Shown: positions 5,074 to 38,819 of the stretch, piece by piece
Layout of the letters: every line of letters begins with the position of its first letter
Position numbering within the stretch: position 1 is the stretch's first letter
Source: a phage
Length of the DNA: 38,819 bases
Sequence record: PX655591.1
Direction: 5' to 3' (one strand)
Notes under the pieces: model-generated
Database searches by the model: none
Told to the model about the DNA's origin: nothing
Seen by the model: the letters and a program-made list of their open reading frames with translations, nothing else
Made by a program: the position numbers and the translations under genes

Positions 5074-5089
5074 CAGGAGAGAGAGAGTT

Positions 5090-5290
5090 ATGAAATTCGC
5101 ACACAAGCAGACTGGCGTTAAGGGTGGGACTCAAATCGTGACCGTAACAGAACACAACGGCAAGGGTCTGGTGAAGACCACTGTCATACCTACCGAGATG
5201 TCAAAGCAGCTTAAAGTCCCATTCAAGTGGTTGGTTAAGCAGGTGGAGCAGGCACACGAACAGGCTCTTAAAGAGGCGGCAACAAAATGA
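5090..5290 (+). CDS. Hypothetical protein, 66 aa (MKFAHKQTGVKGG...)
   Basis: Strong RBS GGAGAGAGAGAG upstream of ATG 5090; in-frame with track ORF 5060-5290; no T7 counterpart recalled at this position. Confidence 0.5.
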   Translation: MKFAHKQTGVKGGTQIVTVTEHNGKGLVKTTVIPTEMSKQLKVPFKWLVKQVEQAHEQALKEAATK

Positions 5291-5365
5291 CAGACCTACA
5301 GTTACTGGCCTTGTGGCTAGGAGCACTCGCAGTATTCACTTTAATCCAACGCAGAAGAGGTTAAC
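5288..5365 (+). CDS. Small hydrophobic peptide ORF, 25 aa (MTDLQLLALWLGALAVFTLIQRRRG)
   Basis: Hand translation; ATGA overlap with upstream ORF; very short. Confidence 0.25.
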
Positions 5366-5388
5366 CCTAAACTATCACTATAGGATTA
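5366..5388 (+). promoter_or_regulatory. Phage RNAP promoter (CCTAAACTATCACTATAGGATTA)
   Basis: Conserved 23-mer; position matches T7 phi1.1 promoters near the primary replication origin. Confidence 0.85.
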
Positions 5389-5423
5389 GACTCAAGGTCA
5401 TGACTCAAAGTCGTGGCCTTCAT
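5386..5423 (+). promoter_or_regulatory. RNase III-type processing hairpin (TAGACTCAAGGTCAT...GTGGCCTTCAT)
   Basis: Stem AAGGUCA/UGGCCUU with one G-U pair; same flanks recur at 12381 and 35433 with different loops. Confidence 0.6.
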
Positions 5424-5461
5424 GATTAACCCTAAATAAACACTACTGGAGATTTAACCAT

Positions 5462-5641
5462 ATGTATCAGAACACTATCAACTTCGAGCGCATCCGTGGA
5501 CGTCAGCAGACTGAAGGTTACATTCCGAAGGGCCGCAAGCTGAACAAGACCAAGCGTGGTGGTGGTATCAAAGGCGCTTTCCGTAATGCTGAAGGTAAAG
5601 ACTCTATTGTTAACCAAGAGAAATATTTCGTAGGAGTATAA
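5462..5641 (+). CDS. Gene 1.1-like small basic protein, 59 aa
   Basis: Contains KGRKLNKTKR as in T7 gp1.1 (recalled); position after phi1.1. Confidence 0.7.
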   Translation: MYQNTINFERIRGRQQTEGYIPKGRKLNKTKRGGGIKGAFRNAEGKDSIVNQEKYFVGV

Positions 5642-5645
5642 CCAA

Positions 5646-5933
5646 ATGGGCATGTTCTCAAGAGCACATAGTGGCAACCTGAACACTCTGCGTCAGGCCA
5701 TCAACAACTGGCAGACCGAGACGGAATACAATGCAGAGATCAGCACTTGGTTTGACCCGGTGATGAACAGGACTTGTATCAAAGCGGTAATAGTCCACGC
5801 TCAAACAAGAGAGGTACTCATCGAGAAGGACTTCACGGAGTACCCAAATATCCACGCCGCAGATGTGGAGGCCATTGCGGTAGCCACTTGGTTCAATAAA
5901 CAGTTCAACGACTACACTGGTCGATTCCTTTAA
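5646..5933 (+). CDS. Gene 1.2-like protein (dGTPase inhibitor position), 95 aa
   Basis: Position and size; weak recalled similarity to T7 gp1.2 (MG...SGNL). Confidence 0.55.
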   Translation: MGMFSRAHSGNLNTLRQAINNWQTETEYNAEISTWFDPVMNRTCIKAVIVHAQTREVLIEKDFTEYPNIHAADVEAIAVATWFNKQFNDYTGRFL

Positions 5934-5947
5934 TTCTGGAGACATTA

Positions 5948-6985
5948 ATGATGACAACTATCAAAACAAAACCGCACCGCGCTGTAGATTACTCCGAGCC
6001 TGGTATTAAGAAGGCACTGGAAGCAGCTGGGTCTCTGGAAGCTGAAGTGAAGTATGACGGTGTGCGTCTAAACCTACTGGTCCTGCGTGAAGGTGAGACC
6101 TACTGGCTGAGCCGTGAGTCTAAACCTCTTCCAGCCTTGGAGTGGATGAACTCTGAGTTAGGGAATGCGTGGACCCAAGCTGAGTGGCGATGGTTCCTGC
6201 GTCAAGCTGGCTACGAAGGAGTGGGCTTAATGATTGATGGCGAGGTCATGGTCAAAGGCGTGGACTTCAATACCTCCTCAGGTCTCATCCGAACGAAGTG
6301 GGTAAAGCAAAAGAACTTTGAGTTTTCAACTGGTGAGCACTGGGGTAAGAGCTGGAAGAAAGAGAATCTACCGTTCTGTCTTGACAGGAAGCACATCAAG
6401 GTAGTCGTCTACGGTATCGTGGACCTTAACGTCATCCTCGACCCGAAGGCCGAAGGTCCTATCCATAGCGTCACACGCCTGAAGGCCGAAGCTATCGTAC
6501 CCCTCCTCCAGAAATACTTCCCGGAAATTGACTGGGTTCTGTCTGAGAGTCATACAGTGTTCAACCTTGAGTCTCTTCGTGATTTGTACGAGGAGAAGCG
6601 AGCAGATGGACATGAAGGTCTGGTAGTCAAGGATCCACTGGGCAAATACAAGCGTGGTAAGAAGTCTGGTATGTGGAAGATGAAGCCAAGTGAAGAGGCA
6701 GATGGTCACGTTGTTCGCCCGGTGTGGGGAACAGAAGGTCTAGCCAACGAAGGTATGGTCATCGGCTTTGACGTTATGCTCGAGAACGGGATGGAGGTCT
6801 CCGCAACTAACATTAGTCGTGCCCTTATGTCCGAGTTTACGGAGAACGTTAAGTCAGACCCTGACTACTACAAAGGGTGGGCTTGCCAGATTACCTACAT
6901 GGAGGAGACACCAGATGGCTCATTGCGACACCCCTCGTTCGACCAGTGGCGTGGAACTGAGGATAATCCTACAGTCAAGATTTAA
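5948..6985 (+). CDS. ATP-dependent DNA ligase (gene 1.3-like), 345 aa
   Basis: KxDG adenylation motif (EVKYDGVR) and long recalled identity to T7 ligase (WACQITYMEETPDGSLRHPSF). Confidence 0.95.
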   Translation: MMTTIKTKPHRAVDYSEPGIKKALEAAGSLEAEVKYDGVRLNLLVLREGETYWLSRESKPLPALEWMNSELGNAWTQAEWRWFLRQAGYEGVGLMIDGEVMVKGVDFNTSSGLIRTKWVKQKNFEFSTGEHWGKSWKKENLPFCLDRKHIKVVVYGIVDLNVILDPKAEGPIHSVTRLKAEAIVPLLQKYFPEIDWVLSESHTVFNLESLRDLYEEKRADGHEGLVVKDPLGKYKRGKKSGMWKMKPSEEADGHVVRPVWGTEGLANEGMVIGFDVMLENGMEVSATNISRALMSEFTENVKSDPDYYKGWACQITYMEETPDGSLRHPSFDQWRGTEDNPTVKI

Positions 6986-7014
6986 GGCTACATTAAGAGA
7001 TTCATTATGATATC

Positions 7015-7048
7015 AACCCAGTGGTCTTAGGACTGCTGGGTTTCTTTG
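7015..7048 (+). terminator. Intrinsic terminator after the ligase gene (T7 TE-like): 12-bp stem, UUAG loop, U-rich tail
   Basis: AACCCAGUGGUC-UUAG-GACUGCUGGGUU followed by TTTCTTT, read from sequence; same position as T7 early terminator. Confidence 0.7.
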
Positions 7049-7088
7049 CTTTGTGCTAGCAAGCTATCGTCTGGGCCACCAGCTGGAC

Positions 7089-7111
7089 CCTAAGCTATCA
7101 CTATAGGACTA
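7089..7111 (+). promoter_or_regulatory. Phage RNAP promoter (CCTAAGCTATCACTATAGGACTA)
   Basis: Conserved 23-mer with one substitution; intergenic. Confidence 0.8.
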
Positions 7112-7135
7112 CAACCAACAACCTAAGGAGACGCT

Positions 7136-7396
7136 ATGTCTAAGAACTTAATGTTCAACCGTTATTCCAATACCTTCCACCTGTCCAACAACCCGTTCGC
7201 TTGCATTAAGCGCAACGAGAAGCTCGGATACTTCGGGAAGGCAGTTAAGTTATCACCTACAGTCTTCGCGCTGATTACTCCTGGCAAAGCTGAAGAGGCT
7301 CGCCAGAAGCGTGAGACCAGCGTACCTGTGGTCTACACTAAGTGGCCTCGCGTTCGTCTGTTCGTTGAGTTCGTGAAGGAGGTGGTCAATGTTTAA
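7136..7396 (+). CDS. Gene 1.6-like hypothetical protein, 86 aa
   Basis: ORF with RBS AAGGAG; assigned by position only. Confidence 0.5.
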   Translation: MSKNLMFNRYSNTFHLSNNPFACIKRNEKLGYFGKAVKLSPTVFALITPGKAEEARQKRETSVPVVYTKWPRVRLFVEFVKEVVNV

Positions 7397-7829
7397 GGTT
7401 GGGGATACAGTTGAATATGTTGGACCAGTTGAAGCCTACATGGGGCTCTCAGGTGGCAAGGTGATTATAGTTAGAGGGCCGGCAGTTGGCGTTAAGTGGC
7501 CCCATTTATCTGAACCAGTCATTCACTCCTCTAGAGCCTTAAGTATTACCAATCAGGAGCAGGCTGAGACGCCAACAATAGGTCAGGAAGACAGCGTCCG
7601 TAAGCCGTCCCACTATCAGGTCTTTGACGGTGTTGAATCCATTGAGATTATCGCTCGGTCAATGACTGTCAGCGAGTTCCGTGGTTTCTGCATGGGTAAC
7701 GTCCTGAAGTATCGACTCCGGGCCGGTAAGAAGTCCGAGCTGGCCACTATGGAGAAGGACCTGAACAAAGCAGCCTTCTATCAGGAGCTGTTCGACCTGC
7801 ATAAAGGTAAGTGCTATGCTGCCGAGTGA
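7389..7829 (+). CDS. Gene 1.7-like hypothetical protein, 146 aa
   Basis: RBS GAAGGAGG; assigned by position; C-terminal PSHY...GNVLKYRLRAGKK motif resembles a phage DUF-type domain (uncertain). Confidence 0.5.
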   Translation: MFKVGDTVEYVGPVEAYMGLSGGKVIIVRGPAVGVKWPHLSEPVIHSSRALSITNQEQAETPTIGQEDSVRKPSHYQVFDGVESIEIIARSMTVSEFRGFCMGNVLKYRLRAGKKSELATMEKDLNKAAFYQELFDLHKGKCYAAE

Positions 7830-8823: not shown

Positions 8824-9278
8824 TGGCCCAATGGTCTGCAAAACGGGGGCACTCTGTGGGTGCCTACCGCTCTGGACTTGAAGCCAAGAACCAGCAGTGG
8901 CTGGAACAGAACGGCGTCAAAGCGGAGTACGAAAGCCATTATATCAACTATGTGATTCCGGCTTCCGACCACAAGTATACACCAGACTTTATCCTTCCCA
9001 ACGGCATCATCGTGGAGACCAAAGGTATCTTCGATAGTGATGACCGTAAGAAGCACCTTCTGGTACGAGAGCAGCACCCAGAGTTAGACATCCGGTTCGT
9101 GTTCTCAAGTTCCCGCTCCAAGCTATACAAAGGGTCTCCTACCACGTATGGCGCATGGTGCGAAAAGAACGGCTATAAGTATGCCGATAAATTCATACCG
9201 GTTGAGTGGCTTCGAGAGGCGACTGTACGTCTGCCTTCAGGTATCCTCATCCCCAAGAAGAAAGGAGTTAAGTTATGA
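8823..9278 (+). CDS. Endonuclease I, Holliday junction resolvase (gene 3-like), 151 aa
   Basis: YTPDF...VETKG...DDRKKHLLVREQHPELDIRFVFSS matches recalled T7 endonuclease I. Confidence 0.95.
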   Translation: MAQWSAKRGHSVGAYRSGLEAKNQQWLEQNGVKAEYESHYINYVIPASDHKYTPDFILPNGIIVETKGIFDSDDRKKHLLVREQHPELDIRFVFSSSRSKLYKGSPTTYGAWCEKNGYKYADKFIPVEWLREATVRLPSGILIPKKKGVKL

Positions 9279-9745
9279 CTCAGAAATATAGACTTAAGGC
9301 TAATTTTAATGGGTGGCCAGCAGGTACTATCGTTACAAAATGTACGAAAGACCCGTACCCAACGCCGGGAGCGACTCTGGTAGAAACCTCCCAGCCTGGC
9401 ATCTACAAACACGGAGCGGAAGGTTATGACACTCAGCCTGACGGTATGTGGGGAGCGTGGGTTGTAACTAATCAGCTTGAGGAAATTGTAGAGGATAAAC
9501 CTCAAGTCCTTCCAGCTTCGAGCGTACCGCCTGTGACTGTGAAGCGTGAAGTCCTGACCATCGACAAGATTGGTGTGGGCCAGACGTTCATCGTACATGG
9601 CCAGCCTGACGAAGTGTACGTGAAGATTAGCAACTCTCACGTCTTCAACCATAAGCGTCTCCAGATGCACACCACGGACGCACAACGCTTCACCCAGCAC
9701 CTGAATCTGGTGGTCGTAGAATTGGTGGTGTACAATGGTAAGTAA
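9275..9745 (+). CDS. Hypothetical protein, 156 aa, inserted between endonuclease I and lysozyme
   Basis: RBS AAAGGAG; ATGA overlap with gene 3 stop; no recognisable motif. Confidence 0.6.
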   Translation: MTQKYRLKANFNGWPAGTIVTKCTKDPYPTPGATLVETSQPGIYKHGAEGYDTQPDGMWGAWVVTNQLEEIVEDKPQVLPASSVPPVTVKREVLTIDKIGVGQTFIVHGQPDEVYVKISNSHVFNHKRLQMHTTDAQRFTQHLNLVVVELVVYNGK

Positions 9746-21906: not shown

Positions 21907-22473
21907 ATGCCTCAATATGTACCAATCGGCACTGATGATGATTTAGACGCTATCAATGATATGTTAGGGGCCATCGGTGAACCATCTGTCCTACAGCTGG
22001 ACGAGACCAACGCAGATGTCTCTAATGCTCACCGTATACTACATCGTATCAACCGTCAGGTCCAAGCTAAAGGCTGGAACTTTAACATAGATGAATCAAA
22101 GGTTCTGACTCCAAGTCTGGACACACGGCAAATCGTCTGGCTGCCTTCATACCTTAGGATGCAGACAACCGGTTCAGCTAGTGCCTATAGTAACCGTGGT
22201 GGTTATGTTTACGACCTGATACTGCGTACCGACCTGTTTGATGCACCTATAACCGTGGAGCTTATTGAGATGAAGCAGTTCTACGAGATGCCTGTGGTCT
22301 TCCGAGACTACATCGTGACAAAGGCTAGCCGAGAGTTTAACGCCAAGTTCTTCGGAAGCATGGAGTCAGAAACCTATCTGCGTGAGCAGGAGCAGGAACT
22401 GTATCAGCAGGTCATGGAATACGAGATGGATACAGGTCGCTACAACATGATGTCTGACATCGGTCGAGACTAA
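21907..22473 (+). CDS. Tail tubular protein A (gene 11-like), 188 aa
   Basis: NRGGYVYD...MEYEMD motifs shared with recalled T7 gp11; RBS AAGGAGG. Confidence 0.9.
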   Translation: MPQYVPIGTDDDLDAINDMLGAIGEPSVLQLDETNADVSNAHRILHRINRQVQAKGWNFNIDESKVLTPSLDTRQIVWLPSYLRMQTTGSASAYSNRGGYVYDLILRTDLFDAPITVELIEMKQFYEMPVVFRDYIVTKASREFNAKFFGSMESETYLREQEQELYQQVMEYEMDTGRYNMMSDIGRD

Positions 22474-22484
22474 TAGGAGGAGCT

Positions 22485-24848
22485 ATGCCGCTTTACACTC
22501 AGAGTATAAAAAATCTTAAAGGAGGGATAAGCCAACAGCCTGACATCCTAAGGTTTCAGGACCAAGGTGAAGAGCAGGTTAACGCTTGGTCCTCCGAAAG
22601 TGGTGGACTTCAGAAGAGACCACCTTCAGTCTTCAGGAAGCGTATCTCAACAGCGTCTGGCATCCCTGATAACTCTAAGTTCCACTTGGTGAACCGTGAT
22701 GAGGACGAGCGGTATTACCTCGTGTTTACAGGTACTACCGTACGGGCCTTCACTCTTGATGGGGCCGAGGTGGCTGTAACCGGGCCAGACAACTATTTGT
22801 CCACCAGCAATCCGCAAGAGGACATTAGGGTAGTGACTGTGGCAGACTATACGTTCATCGTTAACCGCTCCAAGGTGGTGACTGCAGGAGCGACCACAGC
22901 ACATCCGGGGTATAACCTTAAGTCTCGAGGTCTCATTAACGTACGAGGAGGACAGTACGGTAAAAAGCTGACGGTCAGTATCAATGGAGGACCTGAGGTC
23001 AACCATGCGCTCCCTAATGGCACTAGCGCCGAAGCTGACCCACCACGGATTGACGCGCAGTTCATTGCTATCAGCCTCCGTAACGCCTTAAGGACAGCAT
23101 ACCCTGACTATACGTTCGAAGTGGGGTCTGGCTATGTGGTATGTACGGCTCCAGAGGGTGGCTCTATAAACCGTATTGATACTAAGGATGGGTACGCCAA
23201 CCAGATTATCAACCCTATTCTCACCTCAGTCCAGACCGTGAGTAAGCTGCCTCTGGCGGCTCCTGACGGATACATCATAAAGATTCAGGGCGAGACAAAC
23301 AGTTCAGCCGATGAGTATTACGTTCGCTATGACGCTGATGCAAAGACTTGGCGCGAGACTGTGGAGCCGGGTACGGTCTTAGGATTTAATAAAGACACGA
23401 TGCCCCACGCCCTGATTAGACAGGCTGATGGTACGTTCAAGTTCGACGTGCTGAACTGGTCTGAGAGAGGGGCAGGTAATGATGACACCAGCCCCATGCC
23501 GAGCTTTGTGGGAGCTAAGATTAACGACGTGTTCTTCTACCGAAACCGATTAGGGTTCCTATCAGGTGAGAACGTCATTATGTCCAGACCGGCTGGCTAC
23601 TTTGCGTTCTTCCCTAAATCTGTGGCAACCATTAGCGATGATGACCCTATTGACGTGGCTGTTAGTCACCCTCGTATCAGTGTCCTGAAGTACGCTGTTC
23701 CGTTCTCTGAGCAATTACTTCTGTGGTCAGACGAGGTACAGTTCGTTATGTCATCCGCTGGGGTCCTGACCTCAAAGTCTATCCAACTTGACGTAGGGTC
23801 TGAGTTCGCGGTGAGTGATAATGCACGGCCGTTTACAGTCGGACGCTCGGTCTTCTTCAGCTCACCCCGCGGGACATTCACCAGCATAAACCGTTACTTT
23901 GCGGTTGCTGACGTATCTGATGTTAAGGACGCTGATGACACGACGGGTCATGTACTGTCCTACATTCCTAATGGAGTATTTGACATCCAAGGGTCCTCGA
24001 CTGAGAATTTCATCTGTGTGGCAACCTCTGGAGCATGGAACAAGCTGTTCATCTATAAGTTCCTCTTCAAGGACGGCGTACAGCTTCAGGCATCATGGTC
24101 TCACTGGGACTTCGGTGAAGGATCAAAGGTGCTGGCCTCAGCATGTATTGGGTCGACCATATATCTGGTTCGCAAGTCTTCTGAAGGTGTGGACCTTGAG
24201 TCTATCTCCTTTACTAAGGACTCCACTGACTTCCCCGATGAACGACTGAGACTTTATGTAGACGGTAAGGTTCTATATACGGTTCCGTCCAATGCGTTCA
24301 ACGCAGATACGTACCAGACCGTACTCAACATGGCTACAGCCTATGGCGTTACCCCAAGTGCTGGAGAGTATGCCGTGATTGAGACCAATGGTCGCTACGA
24401 GGAGTTGCCTGAGCAGGATTTCAATGTTAACCCTGTGGTCCTCCTTACTGGAGACTGGAGTGGTAAGACGCTTATCATCGGTCGTCGCTACACAATGCGC
24501 TACGTCTTCTCTCGGTTCCTCATTAAGCAGGAGGACCAGAACGGGACGCAGACGGTGGACTCCGGGCGCCTACAACTCCGAAGAGCGTGGGTTAACTACG
24601 AGAATACTGGTGCTGTGACCTTCACGGTATCCAACCCTAGCAGGGACTTCACGAACAAACTTAACGGTGGTGACGTTGGGTCCTTAATCCTCGGTGGTGT
24701 GAATGTGGGTGACGGACAGTATCGATTCCCTATGAACGGTAACGCCCTGACCACACGTCTCATCCTTGAGTCGTCTCATCCTACCCCTGTTTCTATCGTT
24801 GGCTGTGGCTGGGAGGCGTCTTACGCTCGTAAGGCTCGCCCTATCTAA
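22485..24848 (+). CDS. Tail tubular protein B (gene 12-like), 787 aa
   Basis: Size and position; RBS AGGAGG. Confidence 0.9.
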   Translation: MPLYTQSIKNLKGGISQQPDILRFQDQGEEQVNAWSSESGGLQKRPPSVFRKRISTASGIPDNSKFHLVNRDEDERYYLVFTGTTVRAFTLDGAEVAVTGPDNYLSTSNPQEDIRVVTVADYTFIVNRSKVVTAGATTAHPGYNLKSRGLINVRGGQYGKKLTVSINGGPEVNHALPNGTSAEADPPRIDAQFIAISLRNALRTAYPDYTFEVGSGYVVCTAPEGGSINRIDTKDGYANQIINPILTSVQTVSKLPLAAPDGYIIKIQGETNSSADEYYVRYDADAKTWRETVEPGTVLGFNKDTMPHALIRQADGTFKFDVLNWSERGAGNDDTSPMPSFVGAKINDVFFYRNRLGFLSGENVIMSRPAGYFAFFPKSVATISDDDPIDVAVSHPRISVLKYAVPFSEQLLLWSDEVQFVMSSAGVLTSKSIQLDVGSEFAVSDNARPFTVGRSVFFSSPRGTFTSINRYFAVADVSDVKDADDTTGHVLSYIPNGVFDIQGSSTENFICVATSGAWNKLFIYKFLFKDGVQLQASWSHWDFGEGSKVLASACIGSTIYLVRKSSEGVDLESISFTKDSTDFPDERLRLYVDGKVLYTVPSNAFNADTYQTVLNMATAYGVTPSAGEYAVIETNGRYEELPEQDFNVNPVVLLTGDWSGKTLIIGRRYTMRYVFSRFLIKQEDQNGTQTVDSGRLQLRRAWVNYENTGAVTFTVSNPSRDFTNKLNGGDVGSLILGGVNVGDGQYRFPMNGNALTTRLILESSHPTPVSIVGCGWEASYARKARPI

Positions 24849-28263: not shown

Positions 28264-28713
28264 ATGAAGAACGGGACAGCCAGTGAGAGACTGGCAGAAC
28301 TGTCAGTAGCTGAAGAGTCTGGCTGTATCCGATTCACAGGCCACTTAGACGGAGAAGGATATGGAAGGATAATGGTAGCTAGGGTTAAGTATATGGCACA
28401 TCGTCTCTCCTACTCCCTAAATAATGGGCCAATACCAGATGGCTATGTTGTTAGGCATAAATGTGATAATCCATCATGCATAAATCCTGAACACCTTGAA
28501 GTAGGAACGCAGGCTGACAACATTGCAGATAAGGTTTCCAGAGGCCGACAGGCAAGAGGGAGTGGAGCAGGCAGAGCTATACTGACAGAGGAATCTGTTA
28601 GGGAGATACTCTCCAGTCCATTAAAAGTATCTGAGCTTTCCACATTATACGGGGTAAGCGTCGTTTCCATACGAAATATATTGAGGAGAAAGACATGGCA
28701 ACACGTGGTGTAA
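28264..28713 (+). CDS. Free-standing HNH homing endonuclease with C-terminal helix-turn-helix-like tail, 149 aa
   Basis: GPIPDGYVVRHKCDNPSCINPEHLEV HNH motif; paralogous to intron ORF (shared ..GPIPDG..V.HKC.N..C.N.EHL); inserted between genes 15 and 16. Confidence 0.85.
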   Translation: MKNGTASERLAELSVAEESGCIRFTGHLDGEGYGRIMVARVKYMAHRLSYSLNNGPIPDGYVVRHKCDNPSCINPEHLEVGTQADNIADKVSRGRQARGSGAGRAILTEESVREILSSPLKVSELSTLYGVSVVSIRNILRRKTWQHVV

Positions 28714-31700
28714 GGAACGCAAATCCGGGCAATATCCGTAAGTCCAAAGACCAATGGGAAGGTGCTATAGGTGATGATGGTGAATTCGTTATCTTCGACA
28801 GCCCTGAATCCGGGGTCCGAGCATTAGCAAAAAACCTTCAAAGCTACGGTCGCCAAGGCTACGACTCAATCGAGAAGATTATCAACCGTTGGGCGCCTCC
28901 GAACGAGAACGACACTCAGTCCTACATCAACTCGGTTGTATCTGCGACTGGTATTCCAGCTACCCAGAGTCTCGACCTCTCTGACCCGGACACACTGTCT
29001 TCTCTGGCGCAAGCTATCGGCTACCACGAGACTGGTTCCCGGTATGACCCTGAGGTCTACAAGACTGGCGTCTCTCGTGCCTTAAGTGGTGCGGGAGGTA
29101 TAAGCCCAAAGACTCCACCAGTAAGCGCGAACGTATTTGACGCACTCACGGAAGGCCTCAAGGCTAAACCTAAAGTATCTCTGGGTGAGAATCTTCCGAC
29201 CGCTGCTGGTCTGAACATTGAGGGTCAAGCGCCTGAAGCTCCCAACGAATCGTTCGGTGAGATGTTCTATAAGGCTACTGGAGAGACCATGCAGGAACGA
29301 GAGGACCGCTCTACGTGGTTCGGTTTCGGTGCTGCTACAGAAGCTGAAGTGAAGAACTCTATGGTCGGCGTGGCTATCCGAGCTGGTCAGACTGAGGACT
29401 CACTTGATGTCATTGGAGATGTGTTCAACCCTACCAGATGGAACAACCATAAGTGGACTCGCGAGGAGCTGGATCAGATTCGTAACGCTGGGGTTCTGCC
29501 TCAGTATTATGGAGTCATTACTGGTGGGTCTCCTCAGAACCTGACCGAGCTTATTAACTTAGCGCTTGAGAACCAGAAGTTGGACCAAGAGAAGGCCAAG
29601 GCTGGGACTGGTGCTCAGTTAGCTGCGGGTGTGATTGGCGCTGGTGTGGACCCTCTGACCTACGTTCCTATTGCTGGGCAGGTAGGTAAAGGTGGGAAGC
29701 TAGTCAACAAGATGTTCACTGTGGCTGCTCAGTCTGGTGCTCTGGCTGGGGCATCCGAGATTGCTCGAACCTCAGTTGCTGGTGGTGACGCTCATGTGGC
29801 TGAGGCAATTATGGGTGGTGCTCTCTTCGGTGGGGGAATGACAGCTATCGGGGACGCTATCGGCAAGGCCTTAGGCAAGTCAACCAACGAGTTCGCTGGG
29901 CCAGCCACACGTCTGGAAGCCCGTGAGACTGCACGTAATGTTGATGGTCAGGACCTGTCTCGTATGCCAATCCGTGAAGGAGAGGAGACTTTTAGTCATC
30001 AAGGCGTTAAGTTCGCTGATGTTCCGAATGAGCCGGGTAGTGTACGACTGGAGGATGGTTCAATCCTGATTGGTGAGAACCCTCTGAACCCTAAGACACG
30101 TCAAGTTTTTGACGAAGTGATTGAGCCTGAACGTGCCGCTGCTGGTGTGAACCTTGGTGGTCTGACTGAGATTGGCTTGAAGCTGCTTCGGTCAGAGAAC
30201 CCTGAGATTCGTGGAGTAGCTGCTGACTTAGTGCGTTCACCGACTGGTATGCAGTCTGGGTCCTCAGGTAAAATCGGGACCACTGCGTCAGACGTATTCG
30301 AGAGACTTCGTGCTGTGGACCATCGGTTCTACAACGACATCGACGATGCGGTTACTGAGGCACTAAAGGACCCGTACTTCCAGACAGCATTCTGGCGAGA
30401 CTCTGGCGCATTCCGTCAGGACATCTACCAGCGTGTGTCTATGGCTATCGAGGATGGTAGCGGAAACCTGAAGGCTGAACTGACTCCGGGAGAACTGAAA
30501 GTCTATGACCTGCTGAAGAACCAGTTTGACGCCAAGCGTGAGATGATGGAGAACCCAGCTATGTTTGGTCGGCCAGACGCTCAGTCTATCTTTCCGGGTA
30601 GCCGCTTCAAGGGAACCTACGTCCCTCATGTGTATAGCAAACAGATGAAGGAGCTGTACATCAAGGAGCTTGGGAGTCCAGAGGCGTTGCAGGAGGCCAT
30701 CAAGAAGTCATGGTTGACCAGCTATGCGTCTCGACCTGAAGTCAAGAAACGCGTGGACGAGGCACTCTTAGAGGCTGACCCTACGTTGACTCCAGAGGGA
30801 CTTGCTGCTGCGGTCGATAAGTACGCCAACGATAAGGCTTACGGTATCTCTCACACCGAGCAGTTCGAACGTTCATCCGTAATGGAAGAGAACATCAACG
30901 GTCTGGTTGGTCTGGAGAACAACAGCTTCCTTGAGGCTCGTAACCTGTTCGATAGTGATATGTCAATCGTCCTGCCTAACGGTCAGACCTTCAGTGTCAA
31001 CAACCTGCGTGAGTGGGACATGGATAAGATTGTCCCTGCTTATAACCGTCGAGTTAATGGTGACATTGCTATCATGGCTGGTACAGGAAAGACCACGAAG
31101 GAAATGAAGGACTTGGTTGAGACCATGATGAACAAGGCTGGGGATGACGGTAAGTTGAAAGGTGAGGTATCTACCTTACGTGACACCTTGAAGATTCTCA
31201 CTGGTCGTGCTCGACGTGATGGTGCTGATGATGCAGCCTTCGCTACCGTGATGCGTACAATGACAGACCTATCGTTCTTCGCTAAGAATGCCTACATGGG
31301 TGTTCAGAACTTAACGGAGATTGGTGGTATGCTGGCTCGCGGCAATGTTCGTGCGCTGCTGCATGGAGTCCCGATGTTCCGTGACCTAGCCTTCCGTAAC
31401 AAGAAGGTAGGGGCCTCAGAGATTAAGGACCTGCACAACGTTATCTTCGGTAAGGAACTGGATGACTCAATCCGTCCGTCAAAGCAGGATGTTATAGACC
31501 GACTACGATCTTACAGCTCCCTGAGTAAACCTACGGCTACGGCTCTAGGCTCTGCCAAGTATTACACTGGTGAACTTGCAGTACGCTCTCCGTTCACTAA
31601 AGTCCTCAACGGTACGACCAACTACCTGTTAGATGCTGGACGTCAAGGCTTCTTGTCTGACATCGTAGAGCATAGCCTGACTGGTAGTAAGCGTAAGTTC

Positions 31701-32591
31701 GATGACCGCTGGCTGAAGACCGCTGGTATCTCTGACGAGCAGTGGAAGGGCATTAAGTCCCTAATCCGTGAGTCAGTGACTCGTGGTCCAGACGGGAAGT
31801 ACACCATCAAGGATAAGAAGGCGTTCAGTCAGGACCCAAGGGCTATGGACCTGTGGCGTATGGGCGACACCATCGCTGATGAAACGTTACTCCGTCCTCA
31901 TAAGCTGTCCAACATGGACGCCAAGGCTTATGGTCCTCTCGCTAAGACTGTCCTTCAGTTTAAGAACTTCGTCATCAAGTCCATCAATGGGCGAACCATG
32001 CGAACCTTCTATAACGCCACGAAGAACAACCGAGCGATGGACGCTGCCCTGTCCACTGTGATGTCTATGGGTCTTGCTGGTATCTACTACATGGCTCAGG
32101 CTCACGTCAAGGCTTACGCTATGCAGGACGGTCGAGACAGAGATTACCTCAAGCAAGCTCTGGACCCAACGATGATTGGCTATGCGGCCCTGTCCCGTAG
32201 TTCACATCTTGGTGGGCCACTTGGGGTAGCTAACATTCTTGGTGGCATCGCTGGATACGAGGACACTAAGATGCTTCGTTCGTCTATCCTCCCGCGTTCA
32301 CCTACAGAGAAGCCTGAACGTGCCATAGCAGATGGTGCGGCTACAAGTGACCCTGTGATGAATGTCGTCGGTAACTTCTTGGAGCAGGTCCCGGCTTTCG
32401 GCTATGCTGCTAACGTTGGTGCCTCGGCGTACAACTTGGCTGGCTACCTCAAGGCTGATACTCGTGTCAATGAGCGAGACTACATGACAGGGATGTATAA
32501 CACGTTCCGAGAACTTGTCCCGAACGACCCGATTACCCAGAAGCTGCTACTTGGGACGTTTGAGGAGCAAGGTATCCACATAAAGGACTAA
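28695..32591 (+). CDS. Internal virion protein D (gene 16-like), 1298 aa, with non-T7 N-terminal domain
   Basis: Middle and C-terminal regions match recalled T7 gp16 (ARETARN...DLVRSPTGMQSG...GTYVPHVY...AYGISH); N-terminal about 120 aa (RNANPGNIR...) lacks the T7 SLT motif. Confidence 0.9.
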   Translation: MATRGVRNANPGNIRKSKDQWEGAIGDDGEFVIFDSPESGVRALAKNLQSYGRQGYDSIEKIINRWAPPNENDTQSYINSVVSATGIPATQSLDLSDPDTLSSLAQAIGYHETGSRYDPEVYKTGVSRALSGAGGISPKTPPVSANVFDALTEGLKAKPKVSLGENLPTAAGLNIEGQAPEAPNESFGEMFYKATGETMQEREDRSTWFGFGAATEAEVKNSMVGVAIRAGQTEDSLDVIGDVFNPTRWNNHKWTREELDQIRNAGVLPQYYGVITGGSPQNLTELINLALENQKLDQEKAKAGTGAQLAAGVIGAGVDPLTYVPIAGQVGKGGKLVNKMFTVAAQSGALAGASEIARTSVAGGDAHVAEAIMGGALFGGGMTAIGDAIGKALGKSTNEFAGPATRLEARETARNVDGQDLSRMPIREGEETFSHQGVKFADVPNEPGSVRLEDGSILIGENPLNPKTRQVFDEVIEPERAAAGVNLGGLTEIGLKLLRSENPEIRGVAADLVRSPTGMQSGSSGKIGTTASDVFERLRAVDHRFYNDIDDAVTEALKDPYFQTAFWRDSGAFRQDIYQRVSMAIEDGSGNLKAELTPGELKVYDLLKNQFDAKREMMENPAMFGRPDAQSIFPGSRFKGTYVPHVYSKQMKELYIKELGSPEALQEAIKKSWLTSYASRPEVKKRVDEALLEADPTLTPEGLAAAVDKYANDKAYGISHTEQFERSSVMEENINGLVGLENNSFLEARNLFDSDMSIVLPNGQTFSVNNLREWDMDKIVPAYNRRVNGDIAIMAGTGKTTKEMKDLVETMMNKAGDDGKLKGEVSTLRDTLKILTGRARRDGADDAAFATVMRTMTDLSFFAKNAYMGVQNLTEIGGMLARGNVRALLHGVPMFRDLAFRNKKVGASEIKDLHNVIFGKELDDSIRPSKQDVIDRLRSYSSLSKPTATALGSAKYYTGELAVRSPFTKVLNGTTNYLLDAGRQGFLSDIVEHSLTGSKRKFDDRWLKTAGISDEQWKGIKSLIRESVTRGPDGKYTIKDKKAFSQDPRAMDLWRMGDTIADETLLRPHKLSNMDAKAYGPLAKTVLQFKNFVIKSINGRTMRTFYNATKNNRAMDAALSTVMSMGLAGIYYMAQAHVKAYAMQDGRDRDYLKQALDPTMIGYAALSRSSHLGGPLGVANILGGIAGYEDTKMLRSSILPRSPTEKPERAIADGAATSDPVMNVVGNFLEQVPAFGYAANVGASAYNLAGYLKADTRVNERDYMTGMYNTFRELVPNDPITQKLLLGTFEEQGIHIKD

Positions 32592-32609
32592 ACTATCACT
32601 ATAGGAAAC
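32587..32609 (+). promoter_or_regulatory. Phage RNAP promoter (ACTAAACTATCACTATAGGAAAC), phi17-like
   Basis: Conserved 23-mer overlapping gp16 stop; followed by GGGAC...GTCCC leader hairpin. Confidence 0.85.
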
Positions 32610-32655
32610 GGGACGCTTGTATAGGTCCCTATTATTTCAACTTTAAGGAGGTCCA

Positions 32656-34956
32656 ATGGCTAGTAAGGTTCTTATTAATTACCCTGTAGGTCAGGACCAG
32701 TATGAAATTCCGTTCCCGTATCTGGCTAGACCTTTTGTCGTAGTGACTCTGGTGAACTCTATGGACCCTTCCATGAACAAGACTCTTGTGGTTGGTAGTG
32801 GCTATCGGTTTATCACAGCCACAGTAATTGAGATTCTTGAGCCAACAGATGGCTTCGACATTGTTCGCATCCAGCGCTACACATCATCAACACGCATTGT
32901 AGACTTCAAGGATGGATCACCTCTTGTTGCTAATGACCTAAATGTTGCTGAGATTCAGTCAATACACATCGCAGAAGAGGGAAGGGACTACGTGCTTGAC
33001 CTAATGGATGAGGCCGCTACTGTTGCCACAAAAGCTGCTGCCGACTCTCAGAAGTACCGTGATGAGGCTGAAGGTTTTAAGAACGACATTAAAGGTGATG
33101 CTGACGCCGTGTTTAACTATAAAGAGGCGGCTTGGGAGGCGATGCTACGAGCTGAGATGGCTGCGTCAACTGCTAACGCTACCCAGATTGTCAGGATTGA
33201 TGACATCGTGTCTCACATCCCGGGCGGTACAACTGGTCAAGCTGACATCTCCACAGCCTTGAATGCGGCGCTTGTGTTGTATGCTGGCACAGGAACAACG
33301 CTACTTGGGACTAAGACATCTCGCTACAGGCAGGATGACACAATAATTGCTCAGTCAGGTGTGACACTTGACTATAATGGAGCTTGGGTAGATGATAACG
33401 TTCAGTCTTCCATCCCAACATCAGGTGGCCGACCGGGTCACACCTTTCAGATTTACGGAGTTGATAGGTTCAAGCTCAGGAACTTCGTGTACAATATGCT
33501 TCCTACAAGAAAGGTTCAATCTGATCCAGACGGTCCACAGCCTACTGTTATGTGGATTGGTGGTCAATACTTAGGGGATGCAACAACAAGTAACATCGAG
33601 GTTAGTGGTATTGACGGGGAAAGTGGAACGCCTCTTGCTGGCGGCTTTCAGATGTGTGGCATGGGGGAGCTTAACGGTCTGTGGTATCATGACTGCAACT
33701 GGGCAAACAACGGATGGCGTTGGGGTTGTAACTTTGAGTATGGACTTATGCCAGAAAGCCCAGTGACAAACCCTAACTTTGAGAACGGCCGCCACCCGTA
33801 TAACCTACTGATTGAGCGTGTAAACGGTCGAAACATTCGCACCTGTGAAGGCTTCTGGCGGTCAGCATCATGTTTTAACGTGTCCTTCAGGGATTGCTTC
33901 AGCTTCAATGTGAGTAACGCTATACGCTACTTCAGTGGGGACCGTGGCATCACTCGCTATAACCAAAAAGTGACATTCAGTAACATGTCTTGCAGAAATA
34001 CGAACTTGGGCCGTCCTGATAATATTGTATGGGCTATCGTTACGAACCGAGATGGCTCAACTGGTGAGGTGCTACCTTCATGGACAAACCAACACCACAA
34101 CTTAGCGTTCATCAACTGCGAGTTCTGGCAAGAGGGACGTTACGGGTCCAGCTGTATGAGACTAGTTGGTAACTTAGGGAAGACTCTGGTAGCGAACTGC
34201 ACCATTAAAGGAGGATTCTTTGGGTTGTGGCAACAAGGCTCTGGTCCTGCTAACTATGACGCAAAGAATAGTCTTCTGGTTATTAACACTGAGTTCATTC
34301 AGAACTACCAGTCTCTGCGTATCGTCGACACCACTGGCTCCATGATTATCCACAGTAGTTTCACAGACCAGCAGTATTCCGCTACGTTTGGTGAGACAGC
34401 TGCAGTTGCGCTCTCCGGTACATCAAACTTTAAGATGTTCGGATGTAATTTGAACCACAGTACGGCGGCTGGTTCGATGGACTGCCCTCTGATGGCCTTG
34501 GTTGGGACTAATAGTAACCTATACCTTCATGCTAATGATTTTATAGTTTACTCTGGTAAGACAGCGATAAGAGGAGCGTCAGACCTATCGCCTGTATATG
34601 GCTCAGCTAATACATGCAACGGAAAGATTATCGACGACGGTCAGCGCATCATTGGGGAGGTAGGAGCCTCAAGCGCTCCAGTTGTTCCCACTGTTACTTC
34701 AAACGTGATTTCTTTCAACCAGTCAGCTGTATTTAATGTTACCAGCGCCATTGTTGTAAACGAGGTTACTGGGGGACGAGAGGGGGATAAGATTACATTC
34801 CGTGGCAGGACTGGAGGTGCGAGTATCACCTTAAGGCATACGGCAGTCACTGGAAACACAAGAATCATCACAAAGTCTGGTACAGATTTAGTGGTAACTG
34901 GTAACTCAGCGTCAGTGACTCTAATGAAGTTCGCTGACGGATGGGTTGAGATGTAA
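32656..34956 (+). CDS. Tail fibre / tailspike (gene 17-like), 766 aa: T7-like N-terminal attachment domain plus unrelated C-terminal receptor-binding domain
   Basis: N-terminal about 150 aa resembles recalled T7 gp17 (IPFPYLAR.FVVVTL...NDLNVAEIQ..HIAEE); remainder not T7-like. Confidence 0.85.
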   Translation: MASKVLINYPVGQDQYEIPFPYLARPFVVVTLVNSMDPSMNKTLVVGSGYRFITATVIEILEPTDGFDIVRIQRYTSSTRIVDFKDGSPLVANDLNVAEIQSIHIAEEGRDYVLDLMDEAATVATKAAADSQKYRDEAEGFKNDIKGDADAVFNYKEAAWEAMLRAEMAASTANATQIVRIDDIVSHIPGGTTGQADISTALNAALVLYAGTGTTLLGTKTSRYRQDDTIIAQSGVTLDYNGAWVDDNVQSSIPTSGGRPGHTFQIYGVDRFKLRNFVYNMLPTRKVQSDPDGPQPTVMWIGGQYLGDATTSNIEVSGIDGESGTPLAGGFQMCGMGELNGLWYHDCNWANNGWRWGCNFEYGLMPESPVTNPNFENGRHPYNLLIERVNGRNIRTCEGFWRSASCFNVSFRDCFSFNVSNAIRYFSGDRGITRYNQKVTFSNMSCRNTNLGRPDNIVWAIVTNRDGSTGEVLPSWTNQHHNLAFINCEFWQEGRYGSSCMRLVGNLGKTLVANCTIKGGFFGLWQQGSGPANYDAKNSLLVINTEFIQNYQSLRIVDTTGSMIIHSSFTDQQYSATFGETAAVALSGTSNFKMFGCNLNHSTAAGSMDCPLMALVGTNSNLYLHANDFIVYSGKTAIRGASDLSPVYGSANTCNGKIIDDGQRIIGEVGASSAPVVPTVTSNVISFNQSAVFNVTSAIVVNEVTGGREGDKITFRGRTGGASITLRHTAVTGNTRIITKSGTDLVVTGNSASVTLMKFADGWVEM

Positions 34957-34973: not shown

Positions 34974-35168
34974 ATGATTGAGTTAGACTTCAAGAATGAA
35001 GTACTTAAGGCCTCCCCTATCGTTGGAACCGCTGCGGCTGATGGTGCCAGTCGGTTCTTCTTTGGACTAACACTGAACGAATGGTTCTACGTTGCGGCTA
35101 TCGCGTACACCGTTGTCCAGATTGGTGTGCTGGTCTACAAAACGATTAAGGGAGGTGGTAAAACATGA
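34974..35168 (+). CDS. Class II holin (gene 17.5-like), 64 aa
   Basis: FFGLTLNEWFYVAAIAYTVVQIG nearly identical to recalled T7 gp17.5. Confidence 0.9.
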   Translation: MIELDFKNEVLKASPIVGTAAADGASRFFFGLTLNEWFYVAAIAYTVVQIGVLVYKTIKGGGKT

Positions 35169-35529: not shown

Positions 35530-35973
35530 ATGCTCGAATTTTTAAAGAGAGCGGCTCCGTGGTTACTTGCAGCAGTGATGTTTGCTGGTGGCTACCACAC
35601 CGCTAACAATAAGTGGGAGGCTAAGGTCAATGAAGAATACACCTCGAACCTTAAGGCATCGGAGGATACAAGGCTTGCTGTCCAAGCTGAAGTCAACAAA
35701 GTGTCCAAACGGTTTCAGGACGAAATATCCTCGCTGGAAGGCAGCACTGATAGGATTATTGCTGACCTTCAGTCTGACAATAAGCGGTTGCGCATCCGAG
35801 TCAAACCAACGAGTGGAACCACGCAAAGTGACGGTCGATGCGTCATTGATGGTTACGCCGAACTTGACGAACGAGATGTTAAACGTCTTATCGCCATCGG
35901 ACTGAAAGGGGACAAATGGATTAAGGCACTTCAAGACACTGTGAGAGCCTTACAGCAAGATAAGGAGAAATAA
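35530..35973 (+). CDS. Rz-like i-spanin (gene 18.5-like), 147 aa
   Basis: MLEFL...EGSTDRIIADLQSDNKRLRIRVK...ALQDT matches recalled T7 gp18.5. Confidence 0.9.
   Translation: MLEFLKRAAPWLLAAVMFAGGYHTANNKWEAKVNEEYTSNLKASEDTRLAVQAEVNKVSKRFQDEISSLEGSTDRIIADLQSDNKRLRIRVKPTSGTTQSDGRCVIDGYAELDERDVKRLIAIGLKGDKWIKALQDTVRALQQDKEK
35630..35905 (+). CDS. Rz1-like o-spanin lipoprotein (gene 18.7-like) embedded in the +1 frame of gene 18.5, 91 aa
   Basis: PRWKAALIGLLLTFSLTISGCASES lipobox and LMVTPNLTNEMLNV match recalled T7 gp18.7; start taken at ATG 35630. Confidence 0.8.
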   Translation: MKNTPRTLRHRRIQGLLSKLKSTKCPNGFRTKYPRWKAALIGLLLTFSLTISGCASESNQRVEPRKVTVDASLMVTPNLTNEMLNVLSPSD

Positions 35974-36359
35974 TGCTAACCGACTTTACGTACTCAGATG
36001 GGAAGTTGTTCAGGAAGGGACGCGAAGTCGGCTCAATGGACAACCACGGGTATCTACGGACTACGGTCAACTACCGTAAGTATCTCGTACACCGTCTAAT
36101 CTACAAGCTACACAACCCTGAGTTCGACCTTGAGTCAGACCTCGTGATTGACCACATCAATCGCGACCGAACAGACAACAGGATTGAAAATCTTCGGGCT
36201 GTGACTAAGGCTGAAAACAACAGGAACAGGGACCTACCGAGAGGCGTGTCTTATTGCAAACAGACCGGGAAGTGGAAGGCTATCCAACCTCGCTGGCTCG
36301 GTCGATTTGATACTGAACAGGAGGCCATAGATGCAGTTAGCGCCGCAAGAGAGGAATGA
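35973..36359 (+). CDS. Free-standing HNH endonuclease with AP2-like DNA-binding domain, 128 aa
   Basis: [31 protein letters not shown] motif; [30 protein letters not shown]2-like; inserted between 18.5 and 19. Confidence 0.8.
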
Positions 36360-38550: not shown

Positions 38551-38583
38551 CGCCGTAATGATAACAATCAACGAACGTAAGAC

Positions 38584-38624
38584 CTAAGGTCAGTTCATAG
38601 CTGACGCTACTCTACTGACCTTAG
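38584..38624 (+). repeat. Inverted repeat with 11-bp arms (CTAAGGTCAGT / ACTGACCTTAG) and 19-nt loop
   Basis: Read from sequence; no U-tract follows, so not a classic intrinsic terminator. Confidence 0.6.
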
Positions 38625-38710
38625 CTACTGTAGTCAAGGACTTTAGGTAACACCTTAAGAGAAGCTCACTTAGGGTCATCCTACTTATTGGTCTATCCTA
38701 GTGTCGCCTG

Positions 38711-38751
38711 ACCTACGGTCCTTGACCTACAGTGGCTGTGGCCTACAGTAG
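38711..38751 (+). repeat. Right-end short direct repeats (ACCTACGGT, ACCTACAGT, CCTACAGT)
   Basis: Same CCTACAG family as the left-end array; analogous to T7 end-proximal repeats. Confidence 0.5.
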
Positions 38752-38785
38752 TGACGATGAGTTTTGGACCAAAAGTTTGAGAACA

Positions 38786-38819
38786 CATCTCACAGTTCAA
38801 GAACCTCAAGTCTCCCCCA
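38786..38819 (+). other. Probable true genome left terminus / start of terminal repeat (TCTCACAGTTCAAGAACC...CCCCCA, continuing into window position 1)
   Basis: Window end joined to window start reads TCTCACAGT...CCCCCATAGG, resembling the recalled first bases of the T7 genome (TCTCACAGTGTACGG...CCCCCATAGGGGG). Confidence 0.55.

What the first reader, a model, noticed from the sequence alone, without database searches (positions are those of the whole stretch)
33100..34956. Tail fibre has a T7-like attachment domain fused to an unrelated C-terminal domain
Only the N-terminal about 150 aa resemble T7 gp17. The remaining about 600 aa are unlike the T7 fibre tip and are rich in Asn, Gly, Ser and Thr with periodic hydrophobics, which is compatible with a beta-helical tailspike that might degrade capsule or O-antigen. 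That would point to a different receptor and host range than T7.
Basis: inference. Interest (0 to 1): 0.5.

Follow-up and report, generated by a model that had tools for sequence, protein, structure and literature searches.

The report
Beta-helix tailspike on a K1F-like phage
Gene 17 of this K1F-like phage encodes a tailspike with a T7-type attachment domain and a predicted right-handed beta-helix of the polysaccharide-cutting kind; this is the ordinary way such phages change host, although this beta-helix belongs to a rare family that nobody has characterised.

Summary
One ORF (32656..34956, +, 766 aa) sits at the gene-17 position of a near-complete K1F-like (Kayfunavirus) genome. Only aa 1-~147 resemble T7 gp17 (Pfam PF03906, E 1e-19; full-length T7 gp17 aligns only to aa 14-116). 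The remaining 616 aa match no Pfam, NCBIfam or PHROG family and no PDB sequence.

The domain family is rare: 48 clusters among 1.84 billion representatives, and one phage record among 50,697. Relatives carry other tail adaptors (P22 head-binding, TSP1/Gp66, endosialidase N-terminal extension (PF12218), P2 tail-collar) or signal-peptide-like N-termini. D247, E361, R402, D429 and R434 are kept in 47-48 of 48 members, on successive rungs.

Best reading: a tailspike depolymerase for a capsule or O-antigen. Substrate and chemistry (hydrolase or lyase) are unresolved and activity is untested. This is a new member of a known kind, of modest interest.

Side finding: gp11, gp12 and the gp17 anchor are far more diverged from K1F than the rest of the genome.

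The parts
32589..32609 (+). Phage RNA-polymerase promoter directly upstream of gene 17 (TAAACTATCACTATAGGAAAC), overlapping the gene 16 stop codon
   Evidence: The consensus occurs 8 times in the window, all on the + strand, against 0 expected in 100 shuffles. It lies inside the stretch still ~93% identical to K1F.
32645..32651 (+). Ribosome-binding site AAGGAGG, 4 nt before the ATG
   Evidence: Read directly from the sequence.
32656..34956 (+). Gene 17: tailspike, 766 aa (stop codon included)
   Evidence: ORF list. It lies between gene 16 (28695..32591) and the T7-family holin gene (34974..35168; PF10746). DNA similarity to K1F ends at 32627 and resumes at 34965, so the whole coding sequence is the divergent cassette.
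32656..33096 (+). N-terminal T7/K1F-type virion-attachment (anchor) domain, aa 1-147
   Evidence: PF03906 E 9.7e-20. PDB sequence hits 9vvr, 9lna and T7 gp17 7boz. 50% identity to K1F gp17 aa 4-145. At most 54% identity to any of 50,697 phage records.
33097..33183 (+). Short alpha-helical neck, aa ~148-176 (probably a trimeric coiled coil)
   Evidence: The model has a helix at aa 157-172. Relative P0001 carries an exact 7-residue (one heptad) insertion here. The coiled-coil reading is inference.
33184..34635 (+). Right-handed parallel beta-helix, aa ~177-660
33193..33342 (+). N-terminal cap of the beta-helix, aa 180-229. This is the only stretch with detectable sequence similarity to known beta-helix enzymes
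   Evidence: hhalign of the family against AlgE4 residues 4-49: probability 64%, E 6.5e-5. hmmsearch hits to GH55 5m5z and the AlgE epimerases fall on the same stretch.
33394..34089 (+). Conserved core, aa 247-478, holding the candidate substrate groove and active site. Motifs: D247-N-V-Q, T-R285, N359-F-E361-Y-G, H380-P-Y-N383, R402-x-A-S-C-x-N408, G-D429-R-G-x-x-R434, D466-G-S-T-G-E
   Evidence: Conservation in 48 family members: D247 48/48, G337 48/48, D429 48/48, E361 47, R402 47, R434 47, N359 46, N408 45, N383 44. Most of these residues lie in the turns that follow the equivalent strand of successive rungs (on the DSSP). The active-site role is inference.
34696..34953 (+). C-terminal beta-sandwich domain, aa ~681-766, joined by a low-confidence linker (aa ~651-680)
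21907..24848 (+). Genes 11 and 12 (tail adaptor and nozzle), the expected docking partners of the anchor domain
   Evidence: gp11 is 76.6% and gp12 68.0% identical to K1F, while other proteins are about 87-99% identical (one small ORF 73%). gp12 is at most 70% identical to any phage record. The docking role follows from knowledge of the T7 tail and was not tested here.

Best explanation
Gene 17 encodes the phage's only tailspike. By analogy with T7 and K1F, six homotrimers dock through the N-terminal T7/K1F-type anchor (aa 1-147) at the gp11/gp12 junction of the tail.

A short helical neck leads into a right-handed parallel beta-helix (aa ~177-660), capped by a small C-terminal beta-sandwich (aa ~681-766). 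The beta-helix binds a host surface polysaccharide (capsule or O-antigen) along a groove formed by the turns of successive rungs. It cleaves that polysaccharide, so the virion can tunnel through the layer to the outer membrane.

The most likely catalytic centre is the cluster E361, D429, R402, R434, with N359, N383, N408 and H380 nearby. A carboxylate pair (E361, D429) two rungs apart slightly favours a glycoside hydrolase, but a lyase using Arg with the carboxylates is not excluded.

The host is probably an Enterobacter/Lelliottia-like or related enterobacterium rather than a K1 E. coli.

Shown: gene position, domain boundaries, fold, rarity, modular distribution and residue conservation.
Inferred: trimer, docking, catalysis, substrate and host.
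For: Position and anchor:
- ORF between gene 16 and the holin gene, with its own phage promoter and RBS.
- PF03906 and solved T7/K1F-type anchors match aa 1-147.

Fold:
- AF2 model pLDDT 79.6, pTM 0.79.

Module behaviour typical of tailspike receptor-binding domains:
- The same domain follows a P22 head-binding domain (PF09008), TSP1/Gp66 N-terminal domain (PF18668), endosialidase N-terminal extension (PF12218), P2 tail-collar (PF12571) or T7 anchor (PF03906) in different relatives.
- A Providencia copy carries a P22 head-binding domain (PF09008) and lies next to a P22-type antirepressor gene, as expected for a P22-like prophage tailspike.
- P0002 (65% identical) and P0001/P0056 (95%) belong to T7-like phages; P0002 and P0001 were seen at the gene-17 position, and P0056 lies on a 38,365-nt contig.

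Catalysis rather than mere binding:
- The same polar residues are kept in 47-48 of 48 members at 17-95% identity. These include members with signal-peptide-like N-termini and no phage adaptor.
- Most of them lie on the equivalent turn of successive rungs.

General model: an anchor conserved by genus plus an exchangeable beta-helical, often enzymatic, receptor-binding domain, including in Kayfunavirus (PMC10408124).

Host hint: the named relatives are prophage proteins of Enterobacter ludwigii, E. cloacae, Lelliottia amnigena and Providencia huashanensis, plus Lelliottia phage phD2B. There is no DNA match in 5,426 complete E. coli genomes.
Against: - No activity, substrate or host has been measured for any family member. 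phD2B is only a genome announcement.
- The window protein itself hits no Pfam beta-helix family at E <= 1. Sequence links to known enzymes cover only the N-terminal cap.
- The model is a monomer built from 7 sequences, and several loops have pLDDT below 60.
- Model coordinates could not be inspected, so the spatial clustering of the conserved residues rests on secondary-structure periodicity, not on measured distances.
- At 35% identity, the relatives' hosts say little about substrate.
Confidence: 0.7

Rival explanations
1. Same architecture, but the chemistry is beta-elimination. The spike would be a polysaccharide lyase acting on a uronic-acid-containing capsule, as in the Klebsiella K1 lyases, the K5 lyase and the AlgE-type epimerase/lyases. 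An Arg (R402 or R434) or Tyr/His would serve as base, and Arg, Asn or a carboxylate-bound cation would neutralise the uronate. This is a sub-case of the best explanation rather than a contradiction of it.
For: - The only sequence-level link is to AlgE-type modules and GH55.
- The K1 lyase uses Tyr311, His373 and Arg397 without metal (PMC8822698). The family has near-invariant Arg residues (R402, R434 in 47/48) plus Y362 and H380 in most members.
Against: - hhalign against the K1 lyase gives 1.9% probability.
- The AlgE catalytic motif YG(F/I)DPH(D/E), checked against the true 2pyg sequence, is absent from the window protein, and the hhalign match stops before it.
- Y362 (39/48) and H380 (41/48) are not universal, whereas two carboxylates are (E361 47/48, D429 48/48).
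Confidence: 0.3
2. The beta-helix is a non-catalytic receptor-binding domain. It would recognise a surface glycan or protein without cleaving it, as the beta-helix adhesins do.
Against: - Binding residues normally vary with the ligand. Here the same charged and polar set is fixed across members at 17-40% identity with different adaptors, and in secreted-looking non-phage proteins.
- The domain occupies the place of known depolymerising spikes in P22-like and K1F-like genomes.
Confidence: 0.15
3. It is a T7-type fibre with a diverged shaft and tip that binds LPS core or a porin, without a beta-helix.
For: Only the shared N-terminal domain.
Confidence: 0.01

Closest known systems
Kayfunavirus tailspikes: K1F gp17 endosialidase, and the K1F-type spikes solved as 9vvr and 9lna
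   Same: Same gene position, same phage backbone (most proteins 94-99% identical to K1F), same type of N-terminal anchor (E 1e-36), and the same logic of an anchor plus an exchangeable receptor-destroying domain (PMC10408124).
   Different: The anchor is only ~50% identical. The C-terminal 616 aa are unrelated to the K1F endosialidase, with no significant match beyond aa 147. There is no C-terminal intramolecular-chaperone (peptidase S74) signal in Pfam. At 766 aa it is shorter than the 1064-aa K1F protein.
Klebsiella phage K1-capsule lyases (NTUH-K2044-K1-1 ORF34, 7w1c; K64-1 S2-4, 9k4a)
   Different: 9-15% identity. hhalign probability is 1.9%. The Tyr311/His373/Arg397 catalytic triad cannot be mapped onto this family. 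The adaptors differ.
AlgE4/AlgE6-type mannuronan C5-epimerase A-modules and the alginate epimerase/lyase 8ja4
   Different: These are secreted bacterial enzymes, not virion proteins. Their catalytic YGFDPHE motif is absent here. The epimerase function makes no sense for a phage spike.
P22, Sf6 and HK620 tailspikes (O-antigen endoglycosidases)
   Different: No sequence similarity. Different rung decorations and a different C-terminal domain.
Lelliottia phage phD2B gp49 (AIM51275, annotated 'hypothetical protein')
   Same: The only homologue of the C-terminal 616 aa among 50,697 phage records (34.6% identity over 98%). It is also a podophage (Autographiviridae, Molineuxvirinae).
   Different: No T7-type anchor. 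It lies at the genome end after a second spike-like gene. It is uncharacterised.

Membership tests
T7 gp17-type tail-fibre N-terminal (anchor) domain, Pfam PF03906 | Match to the family model above the curated threshold | tested here: met
   71.3 bits against a cut-off of 25.2, E 9.7e-20, aa 14-117.
T7 gp17-type tail-fibre N-terminal (anchor) domain, Pfam PF03906 | Alignment to solved anchors of T7 and K1F-type spikes | tested here: met
   7boz, 8e4g, 8dsp (T7) E 1e-21. 9vvr and 9lna E 1e-35 to 1e-36.
T7 gp17-type tail-fibre N-terminal (anchor) domain, Pfam PF03906 | Docks as a trimer at the gp11/gp12 interface | not testable with these tools
   Only indirect: gp11, gp12 and the anchor are the three most diverged of the larger proteins relative to K1F.
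T7-type fibre (whole protein: coiled-coil shaft plus C-terminal tip) | Homology to the T7 gp17 shaft and tip (residues ~150-553) | tested here: not met
   The full-length T7 gp17 chain aligns only to aa 14-116. The predicted fold is a beta-helix.
Pectate-lyase-like right-handed parallel beta-helix superfamily | Right-handed parallel beta-helix fold | tested here: met
Pectate-lyase-like right-handed parallel beta-helix superfamily | Significant match to a member family model (PF12708, PF13229 and the like) | tested here: inconclusive
   The window protein has no hit at E <= 1. Among 48 relatives, PF12708 hits 6 (best 1.5e-9) and PF13229 hits 3 (best 5.2e-9). The family profile against AlgE4 gives hhalign 64%, cap only.
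Phage tailspike depolymerases | Virion-anchoring N-terminal module followed by a beta-helix, at the tail-fibre locus | tested here: met
Phage tailspike depolymerases | Receptor-binding module exchanged between unrelated tail types | tested here: met
   Relatives carry PF09008, PF18668, PF12218, PF12571 or PF03906 adaptors.
Phage tailspike depolymerases | Homotrimer | not testable with these tools
   Only monomer prediction was available.
Phage tailspike depolymerases | Cleaves host capsule, EPS or O-antigen | not testable with these tools
   Inferred from the conserved polar set. No experimental data exist for any member.
Metal-independent Tyr/His/Arg beta-helix lyases (K1 lyase type) | Sequence homology, or a conserved Tyr-His-Arg set | tested here: inconclusive
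   hhalign probability 1.9%. Arg residues are near-invariant, but Y362 (39/48) and H380 (41/48) are not. No structural residue mapping was possible.
AlgE-type mannuronan C5-epimerase/lyase A-module | Catalytic motif YG(F/I)DPH(D/E) with a downstream Asp (AlgE4 Y149, D152, H154, D178; residue roles recalled from the literature, sequence verified) | tested here: not met
   The motif is absent from the window protein by direct reading. The hhalign match covers AlgE4 residues 4-49 only.
K1F endosialidase (GH58 with a C-terminal intramolecular chaperone) | Homology to the endosialidase catalytic and chaperone domains | tested here: not met
   No significant BLASTP alignment beyond aa 147. No Pfam endosialidase or S74 hit.

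The most novel reading that the evidence does not exclude
The C-terminal 616 aa may represent an uncharacterised family of beta-helix glycanases with its own catalytic signature (D..NxE(Y/W)G..HPYN..R..GDRGxxR). The family would be shared by tailspikes of at least five tail types and by secreted bacterial proteins, and would merit a new CAZy-type family with a new substrate specificity.

In addition, this phage may have acquired the spike together with a matched gp11/gp12 tail. That would be a whole-tail-module exchange rather than the textbook swap of the C-terminal domain alone.
Probability: 0.35. Interest if true: 0.45.

Novelty: new member of a known kind. Interest (0 to 1): 0.3.

Why it matters
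The spike determines which bacterium this K1F-like phage infects. Replacing the K1 endosialidase with this domain means the phage does not use the K1 capsule, and its host cannot be read from the backbone.

The domain is absent from Pfam, NCBIfam, PHROGs and the PDB at sequence level. A characterised member would therefore annotate about 50 sequence clusters and add a new specificity to the depolymerase toolbox for capsule or O-antigen typing and anti-virulence enzymes.

The conserved residue set gives a direct list for mutagenesis. The parallel divergence of gp11, gp12 and the anchor offers a natural case for studying how spike anchors co-adapt with the tail, which matters for engineering host range by spike swapping.

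Tried and rejected
- Megablast of the gene against 50,697 phage records found no match, not even for the anchor.
- Single-sequence and 7-sequence profile searches of the PDB found nothing for the C-terminal part.
- The precomputed PF13229 hit on relative P0004 was not reproduced for that protein at E <= 1. It did appear for 3 other relatives.
- hhalign against the K1 lyase showed no homology (1.9%), so its catalytic triad could not be transferred.
- Lead: the family's NFEYG...HPYN motif might correspond to the AlgE catalytic YGFDPHE motif. After recovering the true 2pyg sequence, hhalign aligned only the cap. The weak HMMER match (5.4 bits) falls on AlgE residues 212-240, three rungs downstream of the catalytic site. 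I rejected it as evidence for a shared active site.
- The genome-contig scan with the 48-sequence alignment failed for lack of a conserved stretch. With the 7-sequence alignment it returned one locus only.
- The AFDB50 fold library was unavailable.
- The exact protein is not on record in the assembly index.
- E. coli complete genomes gave no DNA match.
- Enterobacter cloacae phage B1, a Kayfunavirus, was checked as a possible identity. Its spike has different domains (PF18668 plus PF12708), so it is not this protein.

Full report
What is there. The finding lies inside one ORF, 32656..34956 on the + strand, 766 aa. It has an AAGGAGG ribosome-binding site 4 nt upstream of the ATG. A phage-polymerase promoter, TAAACTATCACTATAGGAAAC, sits at 32589-32609. 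That consensus occurs 8 times in the window, all on the + strand, against 0 expected. The ORF lies between gene 16 (28695..32591) and the T7-family holin gene (34974..35168; PF10746), which is the gene-17 position. The window as a whole is a nearly complete K1F-like (Kayfunavirus) genome, colinear with K1F from end to end.

Checking the observation. Pfam finds only PF03906, the T7 tail-fibre N-terminal domain, at aa 14-117 (E 9.7e-20). PHROG tail-fibre families match only within aa 1-207. In the PDB sequence library, full-length T7 gp17 (553 aa) aligns only to aa 14-116, and the closer K1F-type spikes 9vvr and 9lna align to aa 1-146. K1F gp17 aligns to aa 6-147 at 50% identity, with no significant match further on. 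The remaining 616 aa have N+G+S+T of 36.3%, against 24.8% in the window's other long ORFs. They also show rung-like hydrophobic motifs every 21-30 residues. The only adjustment is that 33100 marks a domain boundary (about codon 149), not a gene start.

- anchor, aa 1-147
- helical neck, aa ~148-176
- beta-helix, aa ~177-660
- flexible linker, aa ~651-680
- beta-sandwich, aa ~681-766

Sequence relatives. The domain is rare. tblastn against 50,697 phage records finds only Lelliottia phage phD2B gp49, at 34.6% identity and annotated as hypothetical. The word-indexed search of 5.8 billion proteins finds 6 clusters. An exhaustive phmmer scan of 1.84 billion cluster representatives finds 48 proteins with E <= 1e-3, of which 34 have E <= 1e-30. 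Near-identical (95%) and 65%-identical copies, with the same anchor, occur in other T7-like contigs; two of them (P0001, P0002) were seen at the gene-17 position.

More distant relatives carry the domain behind other virion adaptors:
- P22 head-binding domain (PF09008)
- TSP1/Gp66 N-terminal domain (PF18668)
- endosialidase N-terminal extension (PF12218)
- P2 tail-collar (PF12571)
One such copy has a P22 head-binding domain and lies next to a P22-type antirepressor gene in Providencia huashanensis, as expected for a P22-like prophage tailspike. Named members come from Enterobacter ludwigii, E. cloacae and Lelliottia amnigena. The most distant members have signal-peptide-like N-termini and no phage adaptor. 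This is the behaviour expected of an exchangeable tailspike receptor-binding or enzymatic module, as described for Kayfunavirus and other genera in PMC10408124.

Link to known enzyme families. The window protein itself hits no Pfam or NCBIfam model beyond the anchor. Among the 48 relatives, 6 hit PF12708 (best 1.5e-9) and 3 hit PF13229 (best 5.2e-9). A 48-sequence profile hits the PDB only through the N-terminal cap of the helix: GH55 glucanase at 1.5e-6, and the AlgE-type epimerases at 3e-4 to 4e-3. hhalign of the family against the true AlgE4 sequence, which I recovered, gives 64% probability over AlgE4 residues 4-49 only. Against the K1 lyase it gives 1.9%. Superfamily membership therefore rests on fold plus weak cap homology. 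No catalytic motif of a characterised family can be transferred. In particular the AlgE motif YGFDPHE is absent, and the K1 lyase triad Tyr311/His373/Arg397 (PMC8822698) cannot be mapped.

Likely mechanism. A small polar set is essentially fixed across 48 members at 17-95% identity:
- D247, G337 and D429 in 48/48
- E361, R402 and R434 in 47/48
- N359 in 46, N408 in 45, N383 in 44, R502 in 44
- H380 and R285 in 41, and Y362 in 39 (aromatic in 47)
Mapped onto the model's secondary structure, most of these residues sit in the turns that follow the equivalent strand of successive rungs. Such a line of residues would form one continuous edge of the helix. This is an inference from periodicity, because I could not read coordinates. 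Ligand-contact residues of pure binders normally change with specificity, so this degree of fixation points to catalysis, especially as it extends to members that lack any phage adaptor.

How it got there. DNA similarity to K1F (92-94%) stops at 32627, after the promoter and a small hairpin. It resumes at 34965, 9 nt after the stop codon. The whole coding sequence differs, anchor included. Per-protein comparison with K1F shows identities of 94-99% for RNA polymerase, primase/helicase, DNA polymerase, portal, scaffold, capsid, gp13-16, and the small and large terminase subunits. In contrast, gp11 is 76.6%, gp12 is 68.0% and the gp17 anchor is 50%. gp12 has no relative above 70% identity, and the anchor none above 54%, in the phage collection. 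The external tail (adaptor, nozzle and spike anchor) is thus a distinct lineage on a K1F backbone. The anchor probably co-varies with its docking partners. This goes slightly beyond the textbook picture, in which the anchor stays conserved within a genus and only the distal domain is exchanged (PMC10408124).

Comparison and novelty. In function and architecture this is a standard podophage tailspike: the anchor type is known, the beta-helix fold is known and the modular exchange is known. Three things are new:
- The beta-helix belongs to a sequence family with no curated model, no solved structure and no characterised member.
- That family has a recognisable conserved residue signature.
- The tail module has diverged jointly.
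I rate it a new member of a known kind, with interest 0.3. The most novel reading still open is a new glycanase family plus a whole-tail-module exchange. I give that about 0.35 probability and an interest of about 0.45 if true.

Limits. Both models are monomers built from shallow alignments. The trimer, the groove geometry, the activity, the substrate and the host are all untested. The host inference (Enterobacter, Lelliottia or Providencia-like; no DNA match in 5,426 complete E. coli genomes) rests on relatives at about 35% identity and is weak.

Noticed in passing
window 21907-24848 (genes 11, 12) together with 32656-33096 (gp17 anchor): The three external tail components are far more diverged from K1F (gp11 76.6%, gp12 68.0%, anchor 50% aa identity) than most of the proteome (mostly 94-99%; a few small ORFs 73-90%). 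gp12 is at most 70% and the anchor at most 54% identical to anything in 50,697 phage records. This suggests exchange or co-evolution of a whole tail module.
   Followed up: partly
window 35973-36359 (+): A 128-aa HNH_3 homing-type endonuclease ORF (PF13392, E 2e-17) is inserted between the Rz-like gene 18.5 and the large terminase gene. It is absent from K1F at this site. Its 3' end overlaps the terminase ORF start (36331). A similar HNH ORF sits at the same place in metagenomic relative L003.
   Followed up: partly
window 2302, 5368, 8064, 16696, 19517, 20554, 32589, 38191 (+ strand): Eight copies of the phage-polymerase promoter consensus TAAACTATCACTATAGG(G/A), against 0 expected by chance. 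The copy at 32589 drives gene 17 and is followed by a GGGAC...GTCCC hairpin at 32610-32629.
   Followed up: partly
P0001 (relative, 95% identical), neck region matching window aa ~138-145: An exact 7-residue insertion (EGFKNES, a tandem repeat of one heptad) in the helical neck. This is consistent with a coiled-coil segment that tolerates whole-heptad length changes.
   Followed up: no
window 1-170 and 38579-38817: Window 1-170 resembles both ends of K1F (32-738 and 39558-39704), which is the direct terminal repeat. The window's right end stops at the equivalent of K1F 39556, so the right-hand repeat copy is not included.
   Followed up: no
L001 (Lelliottia phage phD2B) 2246-3895 and 3950-5836: phD2B carries two consecutive spike-like genes at its right end. 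The first has a weak PF12708 hit (E 7.5e-4) and the second is the homologue of the window domain. Both are annotated as hypothetical. The phage may have a dual-spike arrangement.
   Followed up: partly
P0042, P0043, P0048, P0050, P0052 (distant relatives): Family members with signal-peptide-like N-termini and no phage adaptor keep D247, E361, R402, D429 and R434. They look like secreted bacterial enzymes of the same family. Their source organisms are unknown.
   Followed up: no
window 9275-9745 (+): A 156-aa ORF between the endonuclease and amidase genes is only 73% identical to its K1F counterpart, amid neighbours at ~95%.
   Followed up: no
L008 (Providencia huashanensis) 2655-7548: The P22-type tailspike copy of the domain lies next to a P22 antirepressor-like gene, and directly beside a LacY-type permease and an IclR regulator. 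The spike probably marks the prophage end.
   Followed up: no
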